A stretch of DNA of 64,000 nt, taken from contig JBMNJR010000008.1 in NCBI GenBank assembly GCA_050951765.1, forward strand, positions 54,795 through 118,794. The letters run 5' to 3'. Position 1 is the stretch's first letter. Each line of letters begins with the position of its first letter. The notes below the pieces were generated by a model that made no database searches, was not told the DNA's origin, and worked only from the letters and a program-made list of their open reading frames with translations. Positions 14,228 through 44,934 of the stretch are shown here, one piece after another. A program made the position numbers and the translations under genes. Source of the stretch: a bacterium. GTDB taxonomy: Bacteria; Bacillota; DTU030; JBMNJR01.

Positions 14228-14451
14228 GATGCTCCCCTACTCTCCCTTCTCATCCACAGTATGCAATTTCACAGTAACCGTTCAGATCAATATTTAAAAT
14301 TTCAGCACGCAGGATATCCTCACCTTTATACACTAGTAGTTTATCTTTCCTTCGACTACCTTTTACCGGAATCCTTTTCGCAGTACAATAATTTTTTCAT
14401 TGTCACCTGTTAGATGTTTCCACGATAACATCTACTCTAAAAATACGACCC

Positions 14452-14547
14452 GGCTCGACAAGGAACCGGAGAGAGCGAAGCCGGAAGTGATGGACAATTA
14501 ATTTTCATTCCTCTGCTGGTGTCGAGAATCGGCATGGGCGTCTACTC
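14452..14547. repeat. Dispersed repeat, family R1 partial copy (right half)
   Basis: About 96 bp near-identical to 35432..35532 and 54603..54710, ending ...CGGCATGGGCGTCTACTC; on the minus strand begins 6 nt after the dnaE stop. Confidence 0.7.
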
Positions 14548-25099: not shown

Positions 25100-25310
25100 A
25101 GGATAGCCGTTTTGCATAGCTGGCGACTGCTTTTTGAGGTTAGAAGTTGGAAGTTAGAAAAGAACAATATAATATTAGGTTCTATGTATAAAAAAAGAGA
25201 AATAATGAACTCTTTCGCATTACTGTCTAACTTCGAATCTCTAACCTCTAACTTTTTGGAGAGGGTGGTCACGGTCGCCGGAGCCAGCGACAAAATTAGG
25301 CTAGCCCCGG
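25100..25310. repeat. Family R2 repeat locus: inverted duplicate modules
   Basis: 22 bp module CTAACTTC(C/G)AA...CTAACCTC present inverted at 25136..25157 and direct at 25227..25248; followed by the AAAATTAGGCTAGCC module at 25264..25308. Confidence 0.6.
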
Positions 25311-25341
25311 ATAAAGTGTTTCAGAATAGAAACAAATTCCC

Positions 25342-28544: not shown

Positions 28545-29756
28545 ATGAAATATGTGGTGTTATTAGCTGATGGCATGGCAGATTACCCTGTTCCGGAGCT
28601 GAACGGCAAAACCCCGCTAGAAGCGGCATCAACTCCCACCATTGACAGCCTTACCCCTCATGGAGAAATAGGCATGGTTAAAACCATCCCCGATGGGATG
28701 CCTCCTGGCAGTGATACCGCCAATCTGGCAGTCTTTGGTTATGACCCGGCAACCTATTACACTGGCCGTTCCCCCTTTGAAGCTATCAGCATCGGCATAC
28801 CTTTAGCCGCCAGTGACGTTGTTTTTCGCTGCAACCTGGTTACCTTAACAGAAGATGAACCGTATGCGGCCAAAACCATCGTTGACCACAGTTCTGACGA
28901 AATTACCACGGTGGAAGCTGCACAATTAATGGAAACGATTAAAACTAAATTGGGTACGAAAGCCATGGAGTTCCACTCCGGCTTTAGCTACCGCCATATC
29001 TTAGTGTGGCATGATGCTCCCTTTGATTTTACACTGACACCGCCCCACGATATCCTCGGTAAAAAAATCAGAGAATATCTACCGGCAGGCCCTTACGGTA
29101 AAGTTTTTCTAAACATGATGGAAAAAAGCTACCCCCTTCTCGCCCAACATCCAATTAACATTGAGCGGCAAAAACAAGGGTTGAACCCGGCCAACTCCAT
29201 TTGGATTTGGGGCGAAGGGAAAAAACCCCTCTTACCCAGCTTTCAAGAAAAATACGGCCTTAAGGGTTCAGTCATCTCCGCAGTAGATCTGATCAAGGGT
29301 CTGGGACTCTGTGTGGGCTTTACTCCCATTGATGTGCCCGGAGCAACAGGGAATTATCATACCAATTACCAGGGCAAGGTTGAAGCTGCCCTGAAAGAAC
29401 TGCAAAAAGGACAAGATTTTGTCTATATACATATTGAAGCCCCGGATGAATGCGGCCATCGCTATGAAATTGAGCAAAAGGTGAAGTCTATTGAAGCTAT
29501 TGACCTAAAGGTGCTGAAACCTTTGCTAGCCGGTTTGACAGCCATAGGCGAAGATTACAAGATCATGCTCCTGCCTGACCATCCGACACCTTTAAGCTTG
29601 CGCACACATACAAATGAGCCGGTACCATTCCTTATTTATCAGAGCAATGCTAATAAAGAAAACACCTTTAGCTATAACGAAATCGACGCCCCCAAATCAG
29701 GGCTTTATATTCAAGCAGGGCATCGGCTGATGGATTATTTTTTAGGGAAAATGTAA
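28545..29756 (+). CDS. Cofactor-independent phosphoglycerate mutase family protein (archaeal-type, COG3635); possible homoserine kinase analog
   Basis: N-terminus MKYVVLLADGMADYP...KTPLE; RBS AAAAAGGAAG; immediately upstream of thrC. Confidence 0.7.
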   Translation: MKYVVLLADGMADYPVPELNGKTPLEAASTPTIDSLTPHGEIGMVKTIPDGMPPGSDTANLAVFGYDPATYYTGRSPFEAISIGIPLAASDVVFRCNLVTLTEDEPYAAKTIVDHSSDEITTVEAAQLMETIKTKLGTKAMEFHSGFSYRHILVWHDAPFDFTLTPPHDILGKKIREYLPAGPYGKVFLNMMEKSYPLLAQHPINIERQKQGLNPANSIWIWGEGKKPLLPSFQEKYGLKGSVISAVDLIKGLGLCVGFTPIDVPGATGNYHTNYQGKVEAALKELQKGQDFVYIHIEAPDECGHRYEIEQKVKSIEAIDLKVLKPLLAGLTAIGEDYKIMLLPDHPTPLSLRTHTNEPVPFLIYQSNANKENTFSYNEIDAPKSGLYIQAGHRLMDYFLGKM

Positions 29757-35284: not shown

Positions 35285-35532
35285 GAGTAGACGCCCATGC
35301 CGGTATACATCACCTGCGGAAGGCCTGTCCAAAGCCGAAGGCGACGGGCACTAAAGCTTAGGTTCCTTGTCCGGCATGTACATGAGCCCATGGCACCTCT
35401 ATACTTCCGGCAACTGAAAGTATAGAGGCATGGCTCGACTCGACAAGGTACCGGAGAGAGCGAAGCCGGAAGTGGTGAACAATTAATTTTCATTCCTCTG
35501 CTGGTGCCGAGAATCGGCATGGGCGTCTACTC
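35285..35532. mobile_element. MITE-like element, repeat family R1, complete copy
   Basis: 248 bp bounded by perfect 18 bp terminal inverted repeats GAGTAGACGCCCATGCCG (35285..35302) and CGGCATGGGCGTCTACTC (35515..35532); internal hairpin CTCTATAC...GTATAGAG; no ORF. Confidence 0.7.
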
Positions 35533-35740: not shown

Positions 35741-36523
35741 CTATTTTGCCAACTGCAAGGAATTAGTACAATTAAATCGTGCAAATTGCTCAGGCTCAGA
35801 CAAATACATAAATTTCTGAGGTTTGGCAATATATTGACTGTAAATACTTTCTCCCCTTAGCATTGGCCACAGATGCCGGATCGCGGGAACAAAACCATAA
35901 CTTAGATTTTTTACAAACCAATCACCCCCGCTGCTAGGCTTCACATAGTAAGCGCCACCATGGAATTGCAAGAATAATTGGTAGTCCGCCACCAATTGTG
36001 CATATACTAAATTTGCCATAACCAAGGGACTTGTGCCTAAATTCATTGTAATATGACCATAACCCGGTGGAATTAAAATAATATCTCCTACGGTAGCTCT
36101 AATAAAAACCACATCTTCGATCTCATCCGCTGCTTTGCCCTCGGCTTGCAGTAAATATCCCGCCTGACCATGCAAAACCTGATATACTTCACCATAAGTA
36201 AAAGATGTGCCCGGCTTCACCGGATGGTAATGACCCAATGTTTTCACATATTCTCCGGCAATTTTACCTGGCTTTAAGATTGTGATATCGTATCTGAGGT
36301 TATAGTTGTTAAACAACTCTTGGTGCTCTATGGAACTGATCCCCCGATATATATAATAGAACTCTTCTATAGCGGCAACGGCATCTACATAAGGCAATAC
36401 CGGTTTTAAGACTTCTCCATTACGTACCTCCGGCTCAATGGGAACTAAACCCTCACCAAAAACAAGACTGCAATCATCCTGTAAGGATAGAGCTAATCCT
36501 GTAACCGATTTTAAATTAAACAT
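35741..36523 (-). CDS. Cupin-type glucose-6-phosphate isomerase
   Basis: Cupin motifs (TLGHYH...GEVYQVLHG...IPPGYGH); start overlaps the end of the upstream phosphoglucomutase reading frame. Confidence 0.7.
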   Translation of the reverse strand: MFNLKSVTGLALSLQDDCSLVFGEGLVPIEPEVRNGEVLKPVLPYVDAVAAIEEFYYIYRGISSIEHQELFNNYNLRYDITILKPGKIAGEYVKTLGHYHPVKPGTSFTYGEVYQVLHGQAGYLLQAEGKAADEIEDVVFIRATVGDIILIPPGYGHITMNLGTSPLVMANLVYAQLVADYQLFLQFHGGAYYVKPSSGGDWFVKNLSYGFVPAIRHLWPMLRGESIYSQYIAKPQKFMYLSEPEQFARFNCTNSLQLAK

Positions 36524-37975
36524 AATTATCCCTCCCCAATTCTAAGAACTGCGCAATTTGTTGCGCGATCCTTGCTACAACCTGTTCTGTTTCCGCTTCA
36601 ACATATACGCGCAGCACATCTTCAGTCCCGGAAGGACGGACAAGACACTATGCACCATCAGAAAGTACCATTTTTACACCATCCAACCGCTGTATTTGTA
36701 TAAGCTTACGACCTGCCAATTGGTCCGGAGGATTGGTAGTTAATACTGCTAATACCCTCGCTTTTGCTGCAGCTGTACAATAGAAGTCCACTCTTTTGCT
36801 ATACAACTGTCCATACTTAGCTCTGAGCATTGCCATTAGTTCCGGTAAAGTAATATCATATGCAGACAAAATACCGATCAACAATAATCCGGCAACAATG
36901 CCATCTTTTTCAGGTATTTCCCGATTAACCCCTAACCCTCCGCTCTCTTCTGCTCCTAATACTGCCCCTTCGTTAAGCATTGCCTGTGCTAAATATTTAA
37001 ATCCCACCGGTGTTTCAATCATCTTAATCCCTGCTTTTTCTGCCACCCGATCGATCATATGGGTAGTTGCCACTGTCCGAGCAAAAGCAGGATGTTCTGC
37101 ACTGTGATCTGCCATATAATCGGCATAAACGGTAAAAACCTGATTGGGGCTAATATAATTACCATCTGGACCAATAAACCCAAAACGATCCCCATCCCCG
37201 TCCAGCGCAATACCTAAATCCGCTCGGCTCTCCCGCACAGCCGCAGCTAAGTTACCGAGGTTTTCTTCCTTGGGCTCAGGGGATAATTGCCCGCAAAAAG
37301 GTTGTTCGCTGTGAATAGTGAGCACATTATGACCAAGATTGCACAAAATATGCTCCATGTAACCTGCACCAGCGCCATACATAGGATCTACCATAACCTT
37401 TAATGCACAATTCCCATTGATACCCTCCATCAGTTTGCATAGATATCGCCGGTAAATCTCAGCAGAGGAAATTTTTCTGATCAGCTTCGCACCTATTTTG
37501 CAGTGAATCCAGTATTGGATGGAACTTCCGGCGGTATCAAAGCCTCAATGGCACCGGTTATCGCATTTGGCGCGGGACCGGCAAAATCGGGAATATATTT
37601 AATCCCATTATAGTAATAAGGATTATGGCTGGCCGTAATCATAATACCGCCGGCCAGGTGCAAGTCCTTAATTGTACAAGCTATGGCAGGAGTTGGTACC
37701 GGTTGTTCGTTTAGATAAACAGGGATACCGTTGGCTGCTAAAACTTGCGCCGCAACACTGGCAAAAACATCTGACAGCAAGCGCGTATCATAGCCAATCA
37801 CAACACCACGGGTATAATCCTGTCCATTCTTTATTAGATAGGCGGCAATCCCTTGTACGACCCGAGCCAAATTTTCAGGAGTAAACTCTTGACCAATAAT
37901 TGCCCGCCACCCATCGGTGCCAAATCTGATTAAGCCCACCCTTCGCTCCCTCCACGCTTTTTTCAAGTATCCCAA
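36516..37975 (-). pseudogene. Phosphoglucomutase/phosphomannomutase, disrupted
   Basis: Active-site TASHNP in 37493..37975; frameshift near 37440..37520 (A-run GCAAAATAGG); domains II-III in 36648..37430; in-frame TAG at 36648..36650 where Trp is expected (DGA*CLVRPSGTE); frame then continues 43 codons to TAA. Confidence 0.6.
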
Positions 37976-38181
37976 ATATCTAAGTGGTTAATAATATAAA
38001 TTATTTTTATATTATTCCGGTTAATTCTGAAGATGACAAAAATATGATGAGTCCAGAACAATAGCGGAAAAAATGTTTAAACAATGAGCATGCGCGAAGA
38101 TAAAACAACAAGAAATTCCCTGTTCGTATGTAAAAACGAAACCGGACCCCCAAATACAAAGAACCGCCGAATTGCAAAGCC

Positions 38182-38209: not shown

Positions 38210-38240
38210 TAAATAAAAAATTGAACTATAGCGCATTATA

Positions 38241-38330
38241 TACTAGGGGAGCTGGAAACGCCAGCTGAGATAAAGACGTAATTAGTCTTTGACCCTTGAC
38301 CTGATCTGGATAATGCCAGCGTAGGGAAGT
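38241..38330 (+). promoter_or_regulatory. TPP (THI-box) riboswitch aptamer
   Basis: CTAGGGGAGC...GCTGAGA...ACCCTTGACCTGATCTGGATAATGCCAGCGTAGGGAAG matches conserved THI element segments. Confidence 0.85.
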
Positions 38331-38350
38331 AACTTTTGTTTTTGTTGTAA

Positions 38351-38386
38351 AGCATAAATCCTTATCCTGGGATTTATGCTTTTTTA
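38351..38386 (+). terminator. Riboswitch expression-platform terminator
   Basis: 11 bp stem AGCATAAATCC/GGATTTATGCT followed by TTTTT, just upstream of the thiW start. Confidence 0.65.
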
Positions 38387-43524: not shown

Positions 43525-44934
43525 CTAGAGCCTGATATTACCGTCTTGAAGGCCACGTAAACAGGGAAACATCGGAACCACTTTGCCCCTCTTTAATATG
43601 GGTATATTGGCGAACTTTTCATTAGATACTTTTTCGAATGACCGGTTCATTTTCCGCATCATGCTCTGGTTAAATCTATATCTTAAACTTGTACCCTTAG
43701 ATTTGGTATCACGAAAATGTTTTAGTTCTATCTTCCCACCACTTGCCATAAACGCTCGTAGTTCCGCCATCTTTCGCAGCCCTTCTTGGCTCCAGCCCAT
43801 GGGGCGGCTGCTTATTCTGCTCGAGAGAATATGGCTCACATGACCTCTGTACAGCTGCTGCCGCATTCTTCATGGTTATATATTACTATTGCTTCCCAGT
43901 TGTTGGTTATATATCTATGGAATTTGCGTATTTTCTCCTTCTCAGAGACACTGCCAGCCTTTTGGTATAGGCCTTTGATGATTGCTCTAAAGGCCTCTTT
44001 ATCAGAGTTTGAAAGTGCTGTGTAAATAGCAGTTCTTGCTTCCGGGTGTTGGCTCGTAGCAGTCATGATTGCTTTATTCAGGTGGTAACGATCTAATACT
44101 AACTTAGTGTTGGGAAGCCATTTTAGGCCTTCTTTTATCCAGGCCGCGCCATCACCATGTAGATAGATGCGTTCTATCTTCTCGGCTTCTGCCGCCTCTA
44201 ACCATAGGTCTTCATTGTCTTTACCACTACTGCTTATGTAATGGGTATTGATGCAGCTGCCGCGCTTTCTTTGCCTTTCTATCCCTTCGTGTATGCTTAT
44301 CAGCGGTACTATGCTGTTTTTACCGTCTTGCATGGATGCATGGTCTTCATCTGCATTTATATATAATACCGATGCCTGGCGTTTTTCGGTGGGCAGATCT
44401 ATCTTTAATTTTTTTACCTTGCGTAGCTTATTCATCACTGTTTGCCTACTTACTTCGCCCTTTGTAACGTATTTACTGCTTTTACCGTACGAGTTTTCAC
44501 TAGCACATTCTATGAGCCTTTGTGTAACAGCGGTGGATACTCGTTCGTATTTCTCTATCCCTACTGCTTTATCCAATAAATAGACATGCTCATCGTTCCT
44601 TTGATCATGAAAATAGGGTCCTGCTGAATACTATCTGTCCAAACTGTGTATAAAGCTCTCGCTTATCTTTCCTACGCTCAATTACAATTCCTTCTTGTCT
44701 TCTACTTGCTTTATCATCAACTATGGATTTGTCCAGCTCCTCAAGGTACGCTTCTACAATCTCTACTATGAAATTATCGGCCTTTTCTTTAAGATTTACT
44801 TCCATTTCTGCTATCGTTTTAGGTCCATCACCTTCAATGAAAAATTCTGCTACCCCCTTTATGAAATTTTCACAGATTTGTAGTAGAATAGTATCAAACA
44901 AGAGATCTCCTCCTTTGGTAATTGTTGTGGGCAA
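43525..44934 (-). pseudogene. ISLre2-type (UPF0236) transposase, fragmented into three frames
   Basis: Three collinear ORFs (44605..44934, 43836..44576, 43525..43866) that appear to be consecutive parts of one transposase. Confidence 0.55.

What the first reader, a model, noticed from the sequence alone, without database searches (positions are those of the whole stretch)
36516..37975. Phosphoglucomutase gene with two lesions: frameshift plus in-frame TAG at a Trp position
The N-terminal part with the TASHNP active site (37493..37975) shifts frame near an A-run around 37495. The continuation (36648..37430) ends at TAG 36648..36650 in the context DGA*CLVRPSGTE, where PGM-family proteins have Trp, so TGG to TAG is the simplest explanation. 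The frame then continues 43 codons and its end overlaps the start of the downstream cupin-type glucose-6-phosphate isomerase. Either this is a recently inactivated gene in a still-intact operon, or the assembly has two errors.
Basis: seen in the sequence. Interest (0 to 1): 0.45.

Follow-up and report, generated by a model that had tools for sequence, protein, structure and literature searches.

The report
Decaying duplicate phosphoglucomutase gene (pseudogene)
This is a genuine, recently inactivated phosphoglucomutase gene in an uncultured bacterium; it is decaying in a different way in each sampled strain, most likely because the same genome keeps a second, intact copy, so it is an ordinary pseudogene and neither a sequencing error nor a recoding signal.

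Summary
Both lesions are present as described. A minus-strand PGM/PMM-family gene (GTG 37939 to TAA 36516) lacks one A in an A-run (37499..37496), so it runs into TAG 37495..37493. It also has TAG (36650..36648) at a column that is Trp in 119 of 120 homologues. Neither lesion is an assembly error. Nine other contigs from nine other sequencing samples cover the locus at about 99% identity. Counting the window, TAG is present in 8 of the 9 contigs that cover that site, and the short A-run in 6 of 9. One contig (L040) has TGG and the frame-restoring A5, which confirms the inferred ancestral states, but it carries two other frameshifts. Another contig (L044) has only the TAG. No intact allele was found. 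Substitutions in the gene run 9 nonsynonymous to 2 synonymous, against 28:34 in flanking genes. The same MAG (locus-tag prefix ACOX3A) holds a second PGM–cupin-GPI pair, 52% and 51% identical, next to galU in a polysaccharide cluster. That pair shows only three synonymous differences across the same samples. Verdict: an ordinary, recent, polymorphic pseudogene of a redundant paralogue. Programmed recoding and TAG reassignment are rejected. Interest is low.

The parts
37493..37939 (-). PGM/PMM pseudogene, segment 1: GTG start 37939, domain I with the phosphoserine loop TASHNP, ending at the out-of-frame stop TAG 37495..37493. NCBI annotates it as hypothetical protein ACOX3A_05440 (148 aa).
   Evidence: sequence and frames; PF02878; NCBI product P0157.
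37496..37499 (-). Lesion 1: an A4 run where the ancestral allele has A5. The one-base deletion causes a -1 frame change at the Lys148/Ile149 junction.
   Evidence: L040, L044 and L047 have A5 and read FTAKIGAKLIRK in one frame. The window, L010, L045, L046, L048 and L049 have A4. The A4/A5 state is perfectly linked to SNP 37491 T/C.
36648..37496 (-). PGM/PMM pseudogene, segment 2 (-1 frame): linker, domains II and III and the start of IV, with the metal loop DGDGDR and the sugar loop GAEESGG. It ends at TAG 36650..36648. NCBI annotates the part from ATG 37430 as hypothetical protein ACOX3A_05435 (260 aa).
36648..36650 (-). Lesion 2: TAG nonsense codon at Trp431 (TGG to TAG, a G-to-A change at 36649 on the minus strand).
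   Evidence: The column is W in 119 of 120 homologues. L040 has TGG. TAG is present in 8 of the 9 contigs covering the site, counting the window.
36516..36647 (-). PGM/PMM pseudogene, segment 3: the last 43 codons of domain IV with the phosphate-binding loop RPSGTE, then stop TAA 36518..36516, which overlaps the GPI start by 8 nt.
   Evidence: (PF00408 at residues 418-464 of the repaired protein).
35741..36523 (-). Downstream cupin-type glucose-6-phosphate isomerase (260 aa, ACOX3A_05430-like, MGI6575274.1). The ORF is intact in the window, but the population shows signs of relaxed constraint.
   Evidence: PF06560 at 125 bits. It aligns to solved archaeal cPGIs with the GHYH, E and H ligand positions identical. 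Polymorphisms are T159P, Y231C, P235S and one synonymous change, plus a frameshift in L010.
38011..38039 (-). Promoter-like site (TTGTCA-17-AATAAT) about 72 nt upstream of the GTG start. This is a consensus match only. A clade-specific cluster of changes lies just upstream at 38053..38068.

Best explanation
The locus is a real, recently inactivated pseudogene of an alpha-D-phosphohexomutase (PGM/PMM family) gene. It is the first gene of a two-gene PGM / cupin-type GPI operon in an uncultured Bacillota-like MAG (locus-tag prefix ACOX3A). The window's allele carries two disabling mutations: loss of one A from an A5 run, and TGG to TAG at Trp431. In the natural population the gene is broken in every sampled copy, but by different combinations of at least five segregating lesions, shuffled by recombination. 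This is the pattern expected for a gene that is no longer under purifying selection. The most likely reason (inferred) is redundancy. The same MAG holds a second, intact galU-PGM-cupin-GPI unit in a polysaccharide-synthesis cluster, and that unit is conserved. It can supply the F6P to G6P to G1P to UDP-glucose conversions. What is shown: the lesions, their ancestral states, their recurrence in independent assemblies, the neutral-like substitution pattern, and the intact paralogue under the same locus-tag prefix. What is inferred: that redundancy caused the relaxation, that the fragments are non-functional, and the enzyme's substrate.
For:: TAG lies at a column that is W in 119 of 120 homologues. 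L040 has TGG and A5, and the window repaired with those two states gives an uninterrupted 474-codon ORF; the haplotype table of 10 contigs shows TAG in 8 of 9 and A4 in 6 of 9. It also shows del37619 in 6 of 9, a 2-nt deletion at 37532-3 in 5 of 9, del37221 in 2, and 5 private deletions in L010. A4 is perfectly linked to SNP 37491. Both A4 and TAG occur on both upstream-haplotype clades, which indicates recombination. L044 has TAG as its only lesion; the protein clusters holding this gene contain only fragments of 430 aa or less, so no intact allele exists among about 15 billion proteins; all 3 frameshifting indels separating the window from L040 over 10.1 kb fall in the 1.4-kb gene (P about 0.003 if placement were uniform). 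N:S is 9:2 in PGM against 28:34 in flanking genes (Fisher p = 0.046); the paralogous pair is MGI6575366.1 and MGI6575367.1, followed by ACOX3A_05915 and preceded by GalU, with the same 8-nt overlap. It is 52% and 51% identical to the window's pair and is found in the same three samples; the paralogue shows 3 synonymous, 0 nonsynonymous and 0 indel differences across those samples; all four catalytic loops are retained, and the deviations at conserved columns are mostly shared with the intact paralogue, so the decay is recent.
Against: No reads, transcripts or proteins were examined. Short-read metagenome contigs can be chimeric between strains, so individual haplotype combinations (though not the variants themselves) may be artefacts. 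L010's private homopolymer deletions may be long-read errors. Assignment of the paralogue to the same organism rests on a MAG bin: same locus-tag prefix, co-occurrence in 3 of 3 samples, and a tetranucleotide correlation of 0.89 against 0.92-0.97 within the window. The N:S contrast is only marginally significant. Whether the rest of the genome has other PGM or PGI genes is unknown.
Confidence: 0.9

Rival explanations
1. Assembly or sequencing artefact: the gene is intact in the organism, and the MAG consensus has a homopolymer miscount and a base error.
For: The frameshift lies in a homopolymer. The source is a MAG. One related contig (L010) shows many homopolymer deletions that look like long-read errors.
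Against: The same TAG is present in 7 of the 8 other contigs covering it, and the same A4 in 5 of 8. These come from different JGI, SRA and ENA samples, including a separate ENA run. A4 is linked to a SNP 5 nt away, so it is an allele and not noise. Both allelic states are observed. The run is only 4-5 bases long. Other genes in the window and in the related contigs carry no frameshifts.
Confidence: 0.02
2. Programmed recoding: a full-length enzyme is made by -1 ribosomal slippage of tRNA-Lys on A-AAA before the TAG at 37495, plus read-through or special decoding (suppressor tRNA or pyrrolysine) of the TAG at codon 431.
For: Both interruptions involve TAG. The first has a slippery A AAA immediately before a stop, and the -1 slip would give exactly the homologous protein. 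All catalytic loops are intact.
Against: The putative signals are not conserved. Alleles with A5 (in frame) and with TGG exist, and other alleles carry frameshifts at non-slippery sites: 37619, 37532-3 and 37221. A AAA TAG is not an X XXY YYZ heptamer. TAG is the commonest ordinary stop in the window, 24 of 56 long ORFs, so it is not reassigned. Substitutions look neutral at 9N:2S. The functional paralogue has a plain uninterrupted ORF.
Confidence: 0.02
3. Adaptive loss: it is the same pseudogene, but inactivation was favoured by selection. For example, the second PGM-GPI copy might waste hexose phosphates or feed an unwanted polysaccharide. On this view independent knock-outs rose to high frequency in parallel.
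For: There are at least two apparently independent first hits: TAG alone on L044, and del37619 on the TGG-bearing L040. No intact allele appears in any of ten contigs or in the protein collection.
Against: The same pattern arises under plain neutrality after one early lesion, given recombination, which the data show. Sample numbers are small, and most samples probably come from related projects. No phenotype information is available.
Confidence: 0.1

Closest known systems
alpha-D-phosphohexomutase superfamily (PGM/PMM/GlmM). The nearest solved relatives are the Thermus thermophilus putative phosphomannomutase 1TUO (244 bits) and the archaeal phospho-sugar mutases 1WQA and 2F7L.
   Same: Four-domain architecture and all four signature loops (TASHNP, DGDGDR, GAEESGG, RPSGTE).
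   Different: The reading frame is broken twice. The protein scores below the cut-off of every NCBIfam equivalog model (best is Arch_GlmM at 290 bits against a cut-off of 439), so substrate specificity is not assigned by sequence.
The intact paralogue in the same MAG: P0001 = MGI6575366.1, with cupin GPI MGI6575367.1, next to GalU MGI6575365.1 and ACOX3A_05915.
   Same: It is the closest known protein to this gene in the whole collection (52% identity). It has the same PGM-GPI order and the same 8-nt stop/start overlap, and it shares most of the sub-lineage-specific departures from conserved columns.
   Different: It is uninterrupted and conserved (3 synonymous differences only). It is embedded in a polysaccharide-synthesis cluster, whereas the window's pair lies between thiW and a MoxR/DUF58/DUF4129 cluster.
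Cupin-type phosphoglucose isomerases (cPGI; Pyrococcus furiosus and Thermococcus litoralis structures 1QXR, 1X82, 1J3P; Hansen et al. 2005, as cited in PMC12525153).
   Same: The downstream gene matches PF06560 and aligns to the solved enzymes across the cupin core, with the His-x-His, Glu and His positions identical.
   Different: It is a bacterial version about 70 residues longer (260 aa against about 189). cPGIs are described as typically archaeal, with restricted transfers into bacteria (PMC12525153). Activity was not tested.
Programmed frameshifting and stop read-through genes (dnaX -1 frameshift at A AAA AAG; prfB +1 frameshift at CUU UGA). Recalled from general knowledge.
   Same: A slippery A-run sits immediately before a stop codon.
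   Different: There is no canonical heptamer and no conservation of the site. Both in-frame and otherwise broken alleles exist. This gene does not work like these.

Membership tests
alpha-D-phosphohexomutase (PGM/PMM) superfamily | Four consecutive domains: PGM_PMM_I, II, III and the C-terminal domain IV | tested here: met
   PF02878 (1.4e-40), PF02879 (3.8e-17), PF02880 (7.9e-27) and PF00408 (3.4e-13), in order, on the repaired 474-aa sequence.
alpha-D-phosphohexomutase (PGM/PMM) superfamily | Catalytic loops: phosphoserine T(A/S)SHNP, metal-binding DGDGDR, sugar-binding GEESGG-type, phosphate-binding RPSGTE | tested here: met
   TASHNP at residue 102, DGDGDR at 247, GAEESGG at 329, RPSGTE at 435. 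The last lies downstream of the TAG.
alpha-D-phosphohexomutase (PGM/PMM) superfamily | An uninterrupted reading frame encoding the whole enzyme (needed to count as a functional member) | tested here: not met
   three ORF pieces; no intact allele in 10 contigs; only fragments of 430 aa or less in the protein collection. It is therefore filed as a pseudogene of the family.
Specific equivalogs (GlmM, Pgm, PMM/PGM, PgmG) | Score above the curated NCBIfam cut-off | tested here: not met
   the best is TIGR03990 Arch_GlmM at 289.7 bits against a cut-off of 439, and all others are further below. A phosphoglucomutase role is inferred only from the paralogue's galU/GPI context.
Cupin-type phosphoglucose isomerase (PF06560), for the downstream gene | Pfam GPI domain above the gathering score, with the cupin metal ligands (His-x-His, Glu, His) conserved | tested here: met
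   125.4 bits against a cut-off of 20.7. GHYH, E(VY) and GYGH align with identical residues in 1J3P and 4LUK. The ligand identities themselves are recalled from the literature.
Programmed -1 ribosomal frameshift site | X XXY YYZ slippery heptamer conserved among relatives | tested here: not met
   the sequence is A AAA TAG, which is not a heptamer; relatives have A5 (in frame) or other frameshifts elsewhere.
Genome-wide TAG reassignment or Pyl-type decoding | TAG avoided as a terminator; in-frame TAGs recurrent in conserved genes | tested here: not met
   TAG terminates 24 of 56 long ORFs in the window, making it the commonest stop; the TGG allele exists at this codon.

The most novel reading that the evidence does not exclude
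The loss of this second PGM-cupin-GPI copy is not neutral drift but parallel adaptive inactivation. At least two independent knock-outs (TAG on an otherwise intact allele, and del37619 on a TGG allele) have displaced the intact gene across samples. This would make the locus a natural example of selection against a redundant sugar-phosphate shunt in an uncultured anaerobe. A weaker variant is that the single-lesion TAG allele (L044) still yields some full-length enzyme by read-through.
Probability: 0.1. Interest if true: 0.4.

Novelty: new member of a known kind. Interest (0 to 1): 0.18.

Why it matters
The result matters mainly as a clean negative. It shows that an eye-catching in-frame TAG at a Trp position, together with a frameshift at a slippery A-run, is plain gene decay and not a sign of recoding or an altered genetic code. 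It also shows that the MAG sequence is correct at these sites. For annotation, ACOX3A_05435 and ACOX3A_05440 should be merged and flagged as one pseudogene instead of two 'hypothetical proteins'. Metabolic reconstructions of this organism should credit PGM and PGI activity to the galU-linked paralogue. As a small bonus, the locus gives a snapshot of a pseudogene caught early, with several disabling alleles still segregating and recombining in a natural population.

Tried and rejected
1. Genome-wide TAG reassignment was rejected: TAG is the commonest stop in the window.
2. Programmed frameshift plus read-through was rejected on allele diversity.
3. An older shared inactivating missense change was considered. 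The repaired protein departs from 9 of 101 highly conserved columns, but 6 of these positions also deviate in the intact paralogue, so they are lineage traits. Only D213Q and F216C are private to this copy.
4. The genome contigs and metagenome-contig scans with the repaired protein returned only distant relatives (43% identity or less) and gave nothing about close strains.
5. Exact look-ups of the window's own GPI, the 260-aa fragment and the 148-aa fragment found no contigs, because the NCBI MAG itself is not in the contig index. Progress came from ThiD, from the related PGAM, and from cluster members.
6. Phase variation at the A-run was rejected: the run is only 4-5 bases, and each state is tied to a linked SNP, which points to a single origin.
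7. I did not determine the organism's taxonomy beyond 'bacterium' with sporulation genes (YtrH, YtrI and SepF) and Bacillota-like nearest homologues. I judged it not worth a further large search.

Full report
OBSERVATION. The minus strand between 37975 and 36516 holds three consecutive ORF pieces. Piece 1 probably starts at GTG 37939, behind a GGAGGGAG ribosome-binding site. It encodes domain I of a PGM/PMM enzyme with the TASHNP loop and stops at TAG 37495..37493, directly after GCA AAA. The protein continues in the -1 frame (…FTAK|IGAKLIRK…), so one base is missing, and the only homopolymer at the junction is the A4 run 37499..37496. Piece 2 ends at TAG 36650..36648 in the context DGA*CLVRPSGTE. 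Piece 3 runs 43 more codons to TAA 36518..36516 and overlaps by 8 nt the ATG of a 260-aa PF06560 cupin-type glucose-6-phosphate isomerase. The repaired 474-aa protein matches all four PGM/PMM Pfam domains in order. In an alignment with 120 homologues the TAG column is W in 119 and Y in 1, and the frameshift lies in the variable linker between domains I and II.

IS TAG SPECIAL HERE? It is not. TAG terminates 24 of the 56 long ORFs in the window, more than TAA (22) or TGA (10), so a reassigned or avoided TAG is excluded.

WHERE THE WINDOW COMES FROM. Exact look-ups place the window's proteins in an NCBI MAG labelled only 'bacterium' (accessions MGI65752xx, locus tags ACOX3A_…, a 173-kb contig). 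The two PGM pieces are annotated there as hypothetical proteins ACOX3A_05435 (260 aa) and ACOX3A_05440 (148 aa). Scans of species-representative genomes and of JGI metagenome contigs found only distant relatives, at 43% identity or less. The closest intact homologue anywhere is P0001 at 52% identity.

INDEPENDENT ASSEMBLIES OF THE SAME LOCUS. I used neighbouring proteins and cluster members as handles and obtained nine other contigs, from nine other JGI, SRA and ENA samples. They cover all or part of the locus at about 99-99.7% identity. The haplotype table shows the following, counting the window.
- TAG at codon 431 is present in 8 of the 9 contigs that cover it. Only L040 has TGG.
- The A4 run is present in 6 of 9. 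L040, L044 and L047 have A5, which restores the frame, and in those contigs FTAKIGAKLIRK is read in one frame.
- The A4/A5 state is perfectly linked to a synonymous SNP at 37491.
- Three further frameshifts segregate: a 1-nt deletion at 37619 just after TASHNP (6 of 9), a 2-nt deletion at 37532-3 (5 of 9), and a 1-nt deletion at 37221 just before DGDGDR (2 contigs).
- L010 adds five private single-base deletions, which may be long-read errors.
- L044 is the least damaged allele, with 430 uninterrupted codons followed by the TAG.
- No contig is intact, and the protein clusters that hold this gene's products contain only fragments of 430 aa or less.
- An upstream block of linked variants (37989..38068) splits the contigs into two clades. 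Both A4 (with its linked SNP) and TAG occur in both clades, so the alleles have recombined.

Repairing the window with L040's two states gives an uninterrupted 474-codon ORF.

SIGNATURE OF RELAXED CONSTRAINT. Over the 10.1 kb shared by the window and L040, all three frameshifting indels fall in the 1.4-kb PGM gene (P about 0.003 if placement were uniform). The only other coding indel is an in-frame 9-nt insertion. Substitutions segregating in PGM are 9 nonsynonymous to 2 synonymous. The flanking genes on L010, L039 and L040 pool to 28:34 (Fisher p = 0.046). The decay is recent. All four catalytic loops are present. Most departures from highly conserved columns are shared with the intact paralogue, so they are lineage traits. 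The downstream GPI keeps an intact ORF in the window, and its His-x-His, Glu and His positions align with identical residues in solved archaeal cPGIs. Its polymorphisms, however, are 3 nonsynonymous to 1 synonymous, including T159P beside the last ligand His, and L010 has a frameshift in it. The whole two-gene unit may therefore be on its way out. This last point rests on small numbers.

WHY THE GENE CAN DECAY. P0001 is NCBI MGI6575366.1 and is followed by a cupin GPI (MGI6575367.1, 51% identical to the window's GPI). After that comes 'hypothetical protein ACOX3A_05915', and before P0001 lies GalU (MGI6575365.1). All of these sit on a 212-kb contig and carry the same locus-tag prefix as the window, so they belong to the same MAG. 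This pair has the same 8-nt PGM/GPI overlap. It sits in a polysaccharide-synthesis cluster (Wzz, epimerase, sugar transferase, MurJ-like flippase) and occurs in the same three samples as the broken locus. Across those samples it shows three synonymous differences, no nonsynonymous change and no indel. The inference is that galU-PGM-cPGI is the working route from F6P through G6P and G1P to UDP-glucose, and that the window's copy is redundant. Caveats: the link rests on a MAG bin, and the tetranucleotide correlation with the window is 0.89, against 0.92-0.97 among chunks of the window. The lower value is plausible for a low-GC polysaccharide island, but the correlation is not proof.

RIVALS. Assembly error is refuted by the recurrence of both lesions, by their linkage to a SNP and by the presence of both allelic states. 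Programmed -1 slippage on A-AAA before TAG, combined with TAG read-through, would yield the right protein. It is contradicted by the lack of a canonical heptamer, by the existence of in-frame (A5) and TGG alleles, by frameshifts at non-slippery sites in other alleles, by the neutral-like substitution pattern and by TAG's ordinary use as a stop. Adaptive rather than neutral loss cannot be excluded. Two apparently independent first hits exist (TAG alone in L044, and del37619 on the TGG allele L040), and no intact allele was seen. But one early lesion followed by recombination explains the same data.

COMPARISON WITH KNOWN SYSTEMS. The gene is a pseudogene of the alpha-D-phosphohexomutase superfamily. 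The nearest solved relatives are the Thermus putative PMM 1TUO and archaeal phospho-sugar mutases. It reaches no NCBIfam equivalog cut-off, so its substrate is inferred from context only. The partner gene is a bacterial, longer member of the cupin-type PGI family. That family is described as typically archaeal, with restricted transfers to bacteria (PMC12525153).

VERDICT. This is a real feature, correctly read by the first stage. It is an ordinary, recent, polymorphic pseudogene of a redundant paralogue. It has low interest (0.18) apart from its value for annotation and as a tidy example of a pseudogene caught while several disabling alleles still segregate.

Noticed in passing
window 35402..35532; also 14451..14547, 54573..54709 and 25261..25330 (inverted): A GC-rich intergenic repeat of about 100-140 nt occurs at least four times in the window (80-95% identity). 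One copy lies between the GPI gene and the moxR gene. It could be a MITE- or REP-like element or a structured RNA. No Rfam family matched at gathering score.
   Followed up: partly
whole window: TAG is the most frequent stop codon of long ORFs (24 TAG, 22 TAA, 10 TGA). This is unusual for bacteria, where TAG is normally the rarest stop.
   Followed up: partly
window 38235..38344 (+): A TPP riboswitch (RF00059, 78 bits) lies upstream of a thiW-thiD-thiM-thiE operon that is divergent from the PGM gene, and a terminator-like hairpin follows at 38349..38382. Many short-read contigs from other samples end inside this riboswitch (about 38300-38330), perhaps because its conserved core is repeated in the genome.
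   Followed up: no
window 43843..44853, and L010 7915..11993: The related contig L010 is highly divergent from the window over 43843..44616 and loses colinearity after about 44853. There it carries UPF0236 and IS3-type transposase genes. This is a strain-variable mobile-element insertion site next to the MarR/MATE genes.
   Followed up: no
window 30550 and 28907..28959 (compared with L040): L040 has a 9-nt in-frame insertion in the threonine-synthase-like gene and a dense patch of 9 SNPs within 53 nt of the phosphoglycerate mutase gene. The patch suggests a short recombination tract.
   Followed up: no
window 36516..37939 (NCBI ACOX3A_05435 and ACOX3A_05440): The public annotation lists the two larger fragments as separate 'hypothetical proteins' and not as one PGM/PMM pseudogene.
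   Followed up: yes
window 38053..38068 (upstream of the PGM start): One clade of haplotypes (L040, L045-L048) has a 5-nt deletion and six SNPs within 16 nt, just upstream of the promoter-like -35 box. This could be promoter decay or a recombination tract.
   Followed up: no
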